A stretch of DNA of 42,359 nucleotides from Jimgerdemannia flammicorona. Taxonomy: Eukaryota. Positions within the stretch are counted from its first letter, which is position 1; each line of letters starts with the position of its first letter. Shown piece by piece: positions 27,558-29,154 of this stretch. The position numbers and the translations under genes are program-made. The DNA is taken from positions 1-42,359 of the forward strand of contig RBNJ01000091.1 of NCBI GenBank assembly GCA_003990765.1. Direction: 5' to 3'. The notes beneath the pieces are model-generated. The model was not told the origin of the DNA and searched no databases. It was given only the letters and a program-made list of their open reading frames with translations.

Positions 27558-29154
27558 TATAATAGTGACCTCAGAATGATGATATCAGTATAAGAGATAG
27601 CAATTTCTTGTAAGCCACCAGATCAGAGCACAAGAAGATCATATGGCATGACCCACTCAAGCTATGAGATGAGTAATAATGACCAACTGTGAGTTATTGT
27701 GACCACAGTACAGGCATCTTGAGGAATATAAAAGAAGGATCAAGGAACTGCAGTAGCAGCAACTCAATAAGACTCACCAATTCCAAAATTGCTCAAAGAC
27801 TTACCACAAATGAAATGCCTGCTGCTTACCAAACCTCAAGATCAAGGAACTACCAAGGTACTTTAGTTGAAGAAAGAATGTTTCAAGACATCATAAGAGC
27901 CATGAGGACCTATACAAAAAGGACTCCTAGTCTCAACCTGGGTACTAGGAATCTTTATCACTTTATTCTCTACTGCTGTGAGATGGAAACAAGGATTACC
28001 ATTGCTACCAAATACCTCCAAATGTGGCAGGAGTATGAAATAAGAAACCTTCTCTACCAAGAGTTCCCACAGGCCAGCCTCCAAGAGTTACAAGATACCA
28101 CTCTCATAGATATATATGAAGCAAGAATAGCTAAGAAGATTCATCAGATCTTCAGGCATGCACTATGGTTGATGCCCAACTTAGAGTATGTTAGAGTCTC
28201 AGATTTCAAAGATCTGTCAGCCTGCCATATCAATGCACTAGAAGTCAGGGTGGCTACAGAAGTCCAGTCTACTATCACCCTCAATAGTAATGAAGTAGAA
28301 GACTTCTGGCATCCTATCCTCCAGAACAACCCAGATCAATTCCTGCAAGGATTGATCTCAGTATTCCAAGACCCAAGCATCCAGATTAGATCTCCCCAAG
28401 ACCCCACATTTATCTCTTATTTTGTGAAAGAGAATCTCATAGACTAGAGAGCCTCAGATCTTCTCACTCTCTCTACTACTACCAAACATGATGATGTCAT
28501 CAGCAATGATGTCATCCCACATGACATGTACAAAGTATGTGAAACATACAACCTATATGATGAGATAGATGAAACATTTACAGACCTCATCTCCTTTGAA
28601 GACATCCTGACCTCTGATGAAGATGAAGCTCCCATAGTCTTGAATATTCTACTCTAAGTTTCTTAGTTATACTGAATTATACCAGTACTCTTTTCCTGTA
28701 TAATAGCTGTTCCTCCACTGGCATTCTGATCTTGTGTGACTTAGAATTATTCCACCACCCTTTTTCTATATTACCAAAATTATACCAGCATTCTGAACCT
28801 ATACAAACATCTGTACTGATACTGGAACTTGGCAGTTTTCTGTATTCCAGTATTTTATTTGGTTATTGGAATTTATATTTAGCTTTATATCTCAGCAACC
28901 ATTGAATTATATTTTGTATAAACACTTCTCTTATTTCCTTTGAAATAAAGTCAGTTCTAGTTCACTTATACACAATCTCTTACAAGCAATCTAAGAGATA
29001 ACAAGACAGTTTAAAAATAAGAAGTTTGAGGACTATAAGACCTTGGGAAGATACTTCAATAAGAACTTGCTCATAACAAACTTGAGTTAGTCTAGGAGAT
29101 ATACCTTGAAGAGAATCTGACATATTTGAAGGACTCAGTGATCACTATATGACA
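27558..29154 (+). repeat. 5' LTR of element B
   Basis: TA(TG mutated)..CA ends; same length as 34856-36452 and gap-free where compared by hand. Confidence 0.92.
27812..28447 (+). CDS. LTR-encoded accessory ORF of unknown function (decayed; possibly once extended to ~28656)
   Basis: Longest frame within the 5' LTR (ORF track 27689-28447; first ATG at ~27812). Same frame is broken by stops in the 3' LTR (34987-35740). An acidic in-frame continuation follows the TAG. Confidence 0.55.
   Translation, partial: EMPAAYQTSRSRNYQGTLVEERMFQDIIRAMRTYTKRTPSLNLGTRNLYHFILYCCEMETRITIATKYLQMWQEYEIRNLLYQEFPQASLQELQDTTLIDIYEARIAKKIHQIFRHALWLMPNLEYVRVSDFKDLSACHINALEVRVATEVQSTITLNSNEVEDFWHPILQNNPDQFLQGLISVFQDPSIQIRSPQDPTFISYFVKENLID

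What the first reader, a model, noticed from the sequence alone, without database searches (positions are those of the whole stretch)
27689..28656. Gypsy LTRs carry a protein-coding accessory gene with an apparent homologue in a second, divergent element
Seen: the 1597-bp LTRs contain a >200-codon frame. The older element A has, 3' of its integrase (minus strand ~26075-25861), KFQEYFKLE*LL...IAK*VYKLFKDNKPALAHF*EVVPGDFRHI. The second segment aligns without gaps to IAKKIHQIFRHALWLMPNLEYVRVSDFKDL of the LTR ORF, and the first resembles its MWQEYEIRNLL, although the DNA looks dissimilar. Established: LTR-overlapping accessory genes are known in retroviruses (MMTV sag, HIV nef) but are not standard in fungal Ty3/Gypsy. 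Inference: an accessory protein conserved in this lineage (trans-activator, anti-silencing factor or similar); it does not look like env.
Basis: partly seen in the sequence, partly recalled or inferred. Interest (0 to 1): 0.7.

Follow-up and report, generated by a model that had tools for sequence, protein, structure and literature searches.

The report
Accessory gene inside Gypsy retrotransposon LTRs
Several related Gypsy-type jumping genes carry an extra, selected gene of an unnamed protein family with its own promoter-like signal, and in two families it lies wholly inside the terminal repeat, as in complex retroviruses; the protein is probably a regulator, but that is untested.

Summary
Confirmed and extended. 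Both 1597-bp LTRs of element B hold a 280-codon frame (27815-28657; one internal stop in the 5' LTR, five in the 3'). It is a selected gene: start and stop columns are fixed in 56 copies, 17 of 18 tail-length variants are multiples of three, and dN/dS against a distant relative is about 0.3. Homology to element A's 153-codon ORF is not significant from the window copies alone, but is with intact relatives (0 of 294 shuffles). Four mapped families in this genome carry it: inside the LTR in B and C, just before the polypurine tract in A and D. Each has a TATA-like box 62-88 nt upstream; in A it is written into integrase codons. In B it lies upstream of the main LTR TATA, hence in U3. No Pfam, fold or transmembrane signal: not env. 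Best guess: a Tas-like self-regulator (basic N-end, helical core, acidic tail), about 40%; function untested, and A lacks the tail. This scan noted the same family earlier on other pieces of this genome.

The parts
27558..29154 (+). 5' LTR of element B (1597 bp)
   Evidence: 88% ungapped identity to 34856-36452; followed by a primer-binding-like TGG site
27727..27734 (+). upstream TATA-like box of the accessory gene (88 nt before the ATG)
   Evidence: at -86 to -88 in 24 of 30 B loci, -81 in 1, absent or cut off in 5; similar box at -80 in L061; promoter activity inferred, not shown
27795..27814 (+). A-rich leader before the ATG, shared with the distant relative L061
   Evidence: DNA alignment of L015 and L061, position
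27815..28657 (+). accessory ORF, 280 codons, one internal stop at codon 211 in this copy; basic N-end, helical core (about aa 47-150), acidic low-complexity tail (about aa 212-280)
   Evidence: database proteins P0002-P0005 run through the whole frame
28658..28850 (+). decayed array of 35-bp repeats with a dyad, between the ORF stop and the main TATA (enhancer-like; candidate response elements)
   Evidence: 5.6 copies of a 35-bp unit in L015; dyad sites in 48 of 56 LTR copies but none recognisable in the window's 5' LTR; boundaries approximate
28917..28949 (+). main LTR TATA-like box and AATAAA 27 nt later (U3/R junction region)
   Evidence: spacing 27 nt in 55 of 56 copies; same arrangement in LTRs of A, C, D
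29280..34491 (+). gag-pol of element B: Gag with CCHC knuckle, protease, dUTPase, RT, RNase H, integrase without chromodomain; decayed
   Evidence: Pfam dUTPase E 1e-24, RVP_2 E 1e-5, zf-CCHC weak; motifs
34845..34855 (+). polypurine tract before the 3' LTR of B
34856..36452 (+). 3' LTR of element B
35113..35955 (+). second copy of the accessory ORF, five internal stops
25784..26223 (-). decayed short-form accessory ORF of element A (153 codons in intact relatives), overlapping the integrase stop and ending about 40 nt before A's 3' LTR; frameshifted and stop-ridden here
   Evidence: database proteins P0014-P0021
26302..26309 (-). TATA-like box inside the integrase coding sequence of A, 86 nt before the short ORF's start
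   Evidence: TATAAAA in 34 of 39 A loci; the same three integrase residues are encoded without a TATA in 11 of 12 B loci
25283..25742 (-). 3' LTR of element A (about 460-490 bp, no ORF)
   Evidence: left end approximate
36453..36542 (-). continuation of A's RNase H beyond B: B is inserted into A with a 4-bp target duplication (27554-27557 and 36453-36456)

Best explanation
Anatomy (shown or strongly supported): a second transcription unit at the 3' end of a lineage of dUTPase-bearing Ty3/Gypsy elements: TATA-like box, short leader, ORF, ending at the LTR's AATAAA. In families A and D it lies internally, before the polypurine tract; in B and C the LTR boundary lies upstream of it, so the whole cassette is in U3 and is copied into both LTRs and into every solo LTR. 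Inferred step 1: plus-strand priming moved to an upstream purine tract, which pulled the cassette into U3. Inferred step 2: the upstream TATA makes a subgenomic mRNA separate from the genomic RNA, which starts at the downstream TATA. Inferred step 3 (weakest): the protein is a nuclear regulator of the element's own promoters, working like foamy-virus Tas: the basic N-end and helical core bind DNA or a DNA-bound partner, plausibly at the family-specific repeat arrays upstream of the main TATA, and the acidic hydrophobic tail recruits coactivators. The short A form, without tail, would keep the binding role only.
For: Gene is selected: start column ATG 46 / ATA 10 of 56, terminal stop 55 of 55; tail length variants 17 of 18 multiples of three against 6 of 24, 5 of 14 and 5 of 12 in flanking LTR parts; against L061 dN 0.54-0.57, dS 1.6-1.9 in 6 of 8 copies and saturated in 2. 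Present in 28 of 29 LTRs found by their far end, the 29th being cut by a contig end. Own TATA-like box in all families at -62 to -88, in A written into integrase codons. Main TATA-AATAAA downstream of the ORF in 55 of 56. Basic first 45 residues and strongly acidic tails in the long forms; acidic, aromatic/leucine-rich 39-aa tiles in 8 of 8 long forms (thresholds recalled). Repeat arrays upstream of the main TATA. Tas has the same logic: internal promoter, second transcription unit, C-terminal acidic activation domain (PMC517496, passages).
Against: No sequence or fold link to any DNA-binding domain (models pLDDT 47 and 56). The conserved core is net neutral to acidic (12 basic, 14-18 acidic residues in aa 46-150 of B, D and two database relatives), unlike most DNA-binding domains. 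Family A has no acidic tail (0 tiles), and the acidic stretch in B's Gag also passes the tile filter (11 tiles), so the filter is not specific. The repeat arrays differ between families and no shared word ties them to the protein; LTR enhancer repeats are ordinary. No transcript of the cassette was shown.
Confidence: 0.4

Rival explanations
1. Anti-silencing factor: the protein counters methylation or RNA silencing of its element, like VANC of plant VANDAL transposons (recalled), rather than activating a promoter directly.
For: The elements are under heavy cytosine attack: CpG observed/expected 0.02 in B and 0.00 in A against 1.06 in neighbouring genes; 176 of 186 LTR differences are transitions. 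All carrier families are very abundant (first-look candidates 6708, 2065, 4647). An LTR copy would be supplied in trans from many loci.
Against: No similarity to known silencing suppressors, demethylases or nucleases; most genomic copies are themselves mutated, including frameshifts in 9 of 28 unselected LTRs.
Confidence: 0.2
2. RNA-level regulator: the basic N-end binds element RNA to control export, translation or packaging, or acts as a copy-number restriction factor.
For: Arginine-rich N-end (10 basic, 2 acidic in 45 residues of P0002); the Atlas lists a translation-repressor family at 0.93 for the short form (a lead only, below unnamed clusters at 0.95).
Against: The short A form has a neutral N-end (5 basic, 5 acidic); no RNA-binding domain match.
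Confidence: 0.15
3. Nef-like trafficking adaptor: short hydrophobic motifs in the acidic tail recruit clathrin, adaptor or Atg8 proteins for particle assembly or to remove a host restriction factor.
For: A D-L-I-x-F motif and a near-terminal L-N-F motif persist in an otherwise variable tail: 28 of 28 B copies, 14 of 14 D copies, and in P0013 and P0007. The likeness to a clathrin box is recalled, not tested.
Against: Such motifs are equally typical of acidic activation domains; not seen in family C by eye and absent with the whole tail in A; no myristoylation or membrane segment.
Confidence: 0.1
4. Helper of integration or nuclear import that binds integrase or the cDNA ends.
For: Always placed right behind integrase; three of four families lack a chromodomain; accessory roles in nuclear import are discussed for such ORFs (PMC7264820).
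Against: Family D has both a chromodomain-like integrase end and the gene; a separate promoter argues against co-packaging.
Confidence: 0.07
5. Chance open frame or a once-captured host gene without function for the element.
For: The window copies are broken; within-family codon-position test gave no signal (p 0.16-0.73).
Against: In-frame indels, fixed ends, dN/dS about 0.3, retention in families whose RTs are only about 40% identical; every mapped homologue lies in a Gypsy 3' end; no host-type homologue among 1.84 billion representatives or in the profile search.
Confidence: 0.03

Closest known systems
Sense additional ORFs between pol and the 3' LTR of Ty3/Gypsy elements (review PMC7264820; parts 1 and 2 of 3 read)
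   Same: Extra conserved ORF 3' of pol in most copies of a family, no similarity to known proteins; Grande's gene23 has its own promoter and a nuclear product.
   Different: Reviewed sense ORFs are env-like with transmembrane segments and the promoter-bearing ones are antisense; all lie in the internal region. Here the ORF is sense, soluble, and in two families wholly inside the LTR.
Foamy-virus Tas/Bel1 with the internal promoter (PMC517496; passages only)
   Same: Second transcription unit near the 3' end, internal TATA promoter embedded in an upstream coding sequence (as in family A), protein of similar size with a C-terminal acidic region.
   Different: No sequence similarity found; a retrotransposon without env; activation not shown; Tas is not wholly in U3 (recalled).
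Retroviral U3 ORFs, MMTV sag and HIV nef (recalled; no call tested them)
   Same: Protein-coding sequence inside or overlapping U3, so duplicated in both LTRs.
   Different: Different protein family, no membrane anchor; position switches between internal and U3 within one lineage.
ORF3 modules shared between bdelloid retroelements (PMC5408684; abstract and outline only)
   Same: One extra ORF type shared by divergent, dUTPase-bearing LTR lineages; modular 3' ends.
   Different: Those are known enzymes or fusion proteins in the internal region; this one has no known family.
dUTPase-bearing fungal Gypsy elements (PMC2864245; section 5 and passages)
   Same: dUTPase between protease and RT, as in PosPlaTy3-5; the figure legend mentions an additional ORF of unknown function in some elements.
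   Different: The section read describes no LTR-borne gene; figure and supplements not seen.

Membership tests
Ty3/Gypsy LTR retrotransposon (carrier) | LTR pair with TG...CA ends, primer site, purine tract, target duplication | tested here: met
Ty3/Gypsy LTR retrotransposon (carrier) | order gag, protease, RT, RNase H, integrase | tested here: met
Additional ORF of LTR retrotransposons | extra ORF in most copies of the family | tested here: met
   28 of 29 unselected B LTRs; 12 of 12 A regions, which were chosen by the ORF
Additional ORF of LTR retrotransposons | located in the internal region between pol and the 3' LTR | tested here: not met
   met for A and D, not for B (this finding) and C, where it is inside the LTR
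Additional ORF of LTR retrotransposons | under purifying selection | tested here: met
env / env-like | signal peptide or transmembrane segment | tested here: not met
   highest 19-residue Kyte-Doolittle mean 0.19-1.06 in 6 of 6 proteins
Foamy-virus Tas-like transactivator | internal promoter giving a separate mRNA | tested here: inconclusive
   conserved TATA-like box; no transcript ends available
Foamy-virus Tas-like transactivator | C-terminal acidic activation domain | tested here: inconclusive
   composition fits in 8 of 8 long forms, absent in A, control Gag also passes
Foamy-virus Tas-like transactivator | binds and activates element promoters | not testable with these tools
   needs reporter and binding assays
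Foamy-virus Tas-like transactivator | sequence or structural homology to Tas | tested here: inconclusive
   no Pfam hit; fold searches used low-confidence models
Helix-turn-helix DNA-binding domain | HTH fold in the conserved core | tested here: inconclusive
   weak hints only: PF09039 E 0.03 in 2 of 29 rows, Atlas 0.92, DtxR Z 3.2 rmsd 6.6 over 76 residues

The most novel reading that the evidence does not exclude
These retrotransposons evolved complex-retrovirus-style autoregulation independently: a self-contained transactivator gene with its own promoter that has moved into U3 at least twice, so that thousands of solo LTRs are each a complete expression cassette able to switch on, or shield from silencing, the family in trans.
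Probability: 0.35. Interest if true: 0.85.

Novelty: new variant of a known kind. Interest (0 to 1): 0.62.

Why it matters
LTR retrotransposons are taught as gag-pol machines whose LTRs carry only signals. A selected gene of an unnamed family inside U3, with sister families holding it just outside, shows how an LTR can swallow a gene and offers a natural series (internal, internal with promoter in integrase, U3) for studying how retroviral accessory genes arise. If it is a transactivator or anti-silencing protein, it could help explain why these families reach thousands of copies in a genome that mutates repeats heavily. Annotation pipelines that mask LTRs would miss it.

Tried and rejected
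Window-only A/B alignment: not significant (545 of 2000 shuffles). Codon-position test of shared transversions within family B: no power. Pfam, PHROGs, PDB sequences: nothing at cut-off. Structure models: mean pLDDT 47 (6 rows) and 56 (22 rows); Foldseek on PDB and viral models no hit at E 0.001; VIA-align best Z 3.9 and 4.8, none at 5; these blanks do not show a new fold. Homodimer prediction: no verdict. Atlas: nothing at 0.9 for the long form; unnamed prokaryotic clusters at 0.95 for the short form, not followed. IMG/VR: no relatives (0 of 70 and 0 of 88 stretches). Expression: no RNA holder listed; contigs of three runs were laid, but contigs cannot show starts, strand or level. Gene exchange between lineages: identities are suggestive (B-D ORF 40-42% with RT 38-42%; A-B ORF 17-20% with RT 60-68%) but the ORF tree does not reject the RT grouping; only the 258-bp, 80% DNA match between C and D points to exchange. 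An apparent second motif copy at the LTR's 3' end was rejected: copies shift frame there. The 365 nt between B's integrase and LTR show a 1-bp length polymorphism and no fixed frame. A shared response element between families was not found. Cluster look-up could not be made. A fifth family (P0022-like) could not be mapped. Literature: 'gypsy + retrotransposon + ORF within LTR' 0 papers; five further searches (listings only) showed no retrotransposon with a gene wholly in U3; the library lacks most subscription papers and supplements were not read.

Full report
Observation. Element B spans 27558-36452 with two 1597-bp LTRs, 88% identical without gaps, and an internal gag-protease-dUTPase-RT-RNase H-integrase region. 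It is inserted into the RNase H of an older element A on the minus strand, with a 4-bp target duplication. Each LTR holds a 280-codon frame, 27815-28657 and 35113-35955, with one and five internal stops. The elements are heavily mutated at cytosines: 176 of 186 LTR differences are transitions, and CpG observed/expected is 0.02 in B against 1.06 in neighbouring genes. The quoted A and B peptides are present, but the two window copies alone do not align better than chance (545 of 2000 shuffles).

It is a gene. A search of the own genome gave 6708 first-look candidates, of which the 150 scored all cover the query at 78-83% apart from the window itself. Because those were chosen by the protein, I also took 29 LTRs by their far 3' end: 28 carry the ORF region, the other is cut by a contig end; 9 of the 28 are split by frameshifts, i.e. 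decayed after insertion. In an alignment of 56 LTRs (L001, L019, L021, L109, L121 left out as duplicate, interrupted or truncated) the start column is ATG in 46 and ATA in 10, the terminal stop is fixed in 55 of 55, and 135 of 146 internal stops fall at columns one cytosine deamination away from a stop. In the tail, which was not part of any query, 17 of 18 distinct length variants are multiples of three, against 6 of 24, 5 of 14 and 5 of 12 in three non-coding LTR parts. Against the 43%-identical metagenomic relative L061, identity by codon position is about 0.52/0.67/0.43, dN 0.54-0.57 and dS 1.6-1.9 in 6 of 8 copies, saturated in 2. A within-family codon-position test had no power. Uninterrupted database proteins exist (P0002-P0005).

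The A homologue. Family A (2065 candidates) has a 153-codon ORF whose ATG overlaps the integrase stop and which ends 44 nt before the LTR in 37 of 41 loci; the codon after residue 153 is a stop in 40 of 41. Its LTRs are 460-500 bp and lack the ORF (9 of 12 fetched regions show both LTRs). Intact relatives P0014-P0021 were found. Profile against profile gives E 8e-5; score 39.8 against 294 column shuffles with maximum 21.0. A profile without any A sequence scores 8 of 12 A proteins above the best of 2000 shuffles (up to 28.5 against 10.5 bits) and picks the window's A segment as its only further hit, though weakly (E 0.55). Family C bridges the two (33-36% to A, 26-30% to B).

Four architectures. 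Searching with distant hits found family C (4647 candidates), with the ORF in both 2350-bp LTRs, and family D, where the ORF ends directly before the purine tract of a 760-800-bp LTR; L061 looks like D. D's integrase ends in a chromodomain-like stretch by eye (not scanned); A, B and C have none. RT+RNase H identities are 60-68% for A-B and 38-47% for the other pairs. So the gene is kept across deep lineages, always 3' of integrase, internal in two and inside the LTR in two. Whether it moved between lineages is open: the ORF tree does not reject the RT grouping, while C and D share 258 bp at 80% behind C's integrase. Beyond this lineage nothing was found: 6 hits among 1.84 billion representatives, one of them (P0010) a low-complexity match; 21 hits among 2344 candidates with the combined profile, all in these families. 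The host group was not established by any search; a fungus is suggested only by a weak Zn2Cys6 hit.

Expression logic. A TATA-like box precedes the ATG in every family: -86 to -88 in 24 of 30 B loci, -62 in 15 of 15 C, -71 to -73 in 13 of 13 D, -80 in L061. In A it is formed by integrase codons (TATAAAA in 34 of 39 loci, at -86 in 32), while B encodes the same three residues without a TATA in 11 of 12; the differing base is a transversion, so deamination does not explain it. A second TATA followed by AATAAA 27 nt later lies downstream of the ORF in 55 of 56 B LTRs and likewise in A, C and D LTRs. By the usual LTR layout (established knowledge) this marks the U3/R region, which places the B ORF in U3 as a separate unit. 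No transcript was shown.

Protein. Long forms have a basic first 45 residues, a helical core and an acidic tail; none has a transmembrane stretch, so it is not env. Models agree on a long helix at 47-83 followed by shorter helices but are of low confidence, and no family or fold matched. The tails of 8 of 8 long forms have activation-domain-like composition by a recalled rule; A has none, and an acidic part of Gag also passes. Two short tail motifs are conserved in B and D. A 35-bp dyad repeat array lies between the stop and the main TATA in B; other families have different arrays.

Mechanism and rivals. I rank a Tas-like self-regulator first (0.4), by analogy of layout with the foamy-virus internal promoter and acidic transactivator (PMC517496, passages; this comparison was also raised by earlier notes of the scan). 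Against it: the core is not basic, A lacks the tail, no DNA-binding fold was found. Rivals are anti-silencing (0.2), RNA-level control (0.15), trafficking adaptor (0.1), integration helper (0.07) and no function (0.03). The anatomy itself I hold at above 0.9.

What is known. Additional ORFs between pol and the 3' LTR are documented in plants and Botrytis (PMC7264820, two of three parts read) and in rotifers (PMC5408684, abstract); dUTPase-bearing fungal Gypsy elements are known (PMC2864245, section 5); PMC3248453 (passages) mentions no such ORF. U3 genes in retroviruses are recalled. Six searches listed no retrotransposon with a gene wholly in U3; the library is incomplete and supplements were not read. 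The scan itself noted this family on other pieces of the same genome (8 notes shown of 372 that fit) and in no other genome; these notes are not independent evidence.

Verdict. Real, selected, unnamed accessory gene; new variant of a known kind (additional ORFs and retroviral accessory genes), with a new protein family and an unusual U3 position. Interest 0.62; 0.85 if it proves to be a transactivator or silencing antagonist.

Noticed in passing
window 20433-21473 (-) and 22510-23475 (+): Two divergent intact ORFs (346 and 321 aa), helical with a central hydrophobic Gly/Ala stretch; the first has a weak, sub-threshold Pfam hit to Bacillus_HBL (E 0.009). Possibly ClyA/HBL-like pore-forming proteins.
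   Followed up: no
window 2427-3989 (-), 7078-8321 (+), 12108-13727 (-): Three related ORFs (85-90% DNA identity) with a Cys-rich stretch; one has a weak Zn2Cys6 hit (PF00172 E 0.02). The only hint from a call that the host is a fungus.
   Followed up: no
window 4300-19500: Several further dispersed repeat families in both orientations, unmutated at CpG compared with the Gypsy elements; a 19-bp tandem array at 10686-10890.
   Followed up: no
window about 36550-42359 (+): GC-rich, G-skewed element with an RT domain (RVT_1 E 2e-18 at 40428-41123), LINE-like by eye, interrupting element A.
   Followed up: partly
L170:6325-6580 and L194:6560-6815: Families C and D share 258 bp at 80% identity just behind C's integrase stop although their RTs are 40% identical: a likely exchange of 3' modules or a shared cis element.
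   Followed up: partly
L191:5185-9099 and L198:3152-7117: Short (about 4 kb) family D units with two LTRs and the accessory ORF but little or no gag-pol between them: possibly non-autonomous derivatives that keep the gene.
   Followed up: no
L015:2178-2201; L179 LTR start: TGACGTCA (CRE-like, recalled) palindromes occur in B's ORF tail codons and in the D LTR, so host bZIP sites may overlap the coding tail.
   Followed up: no
G000:C11441:1019-1684 and others: A fifth, more decayed family matching P0022 at 53-62%; position in its element not determined.
   Followed up: no
family A junction, window 26216-26223: The short ORF's ATG overlaps the integrase stop as ATG-nn-stop in most copies, a spacing also used for stop-restart translation in some RNA viruses (recalled); an alternative to the internal promoter.
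   Followed up: partly
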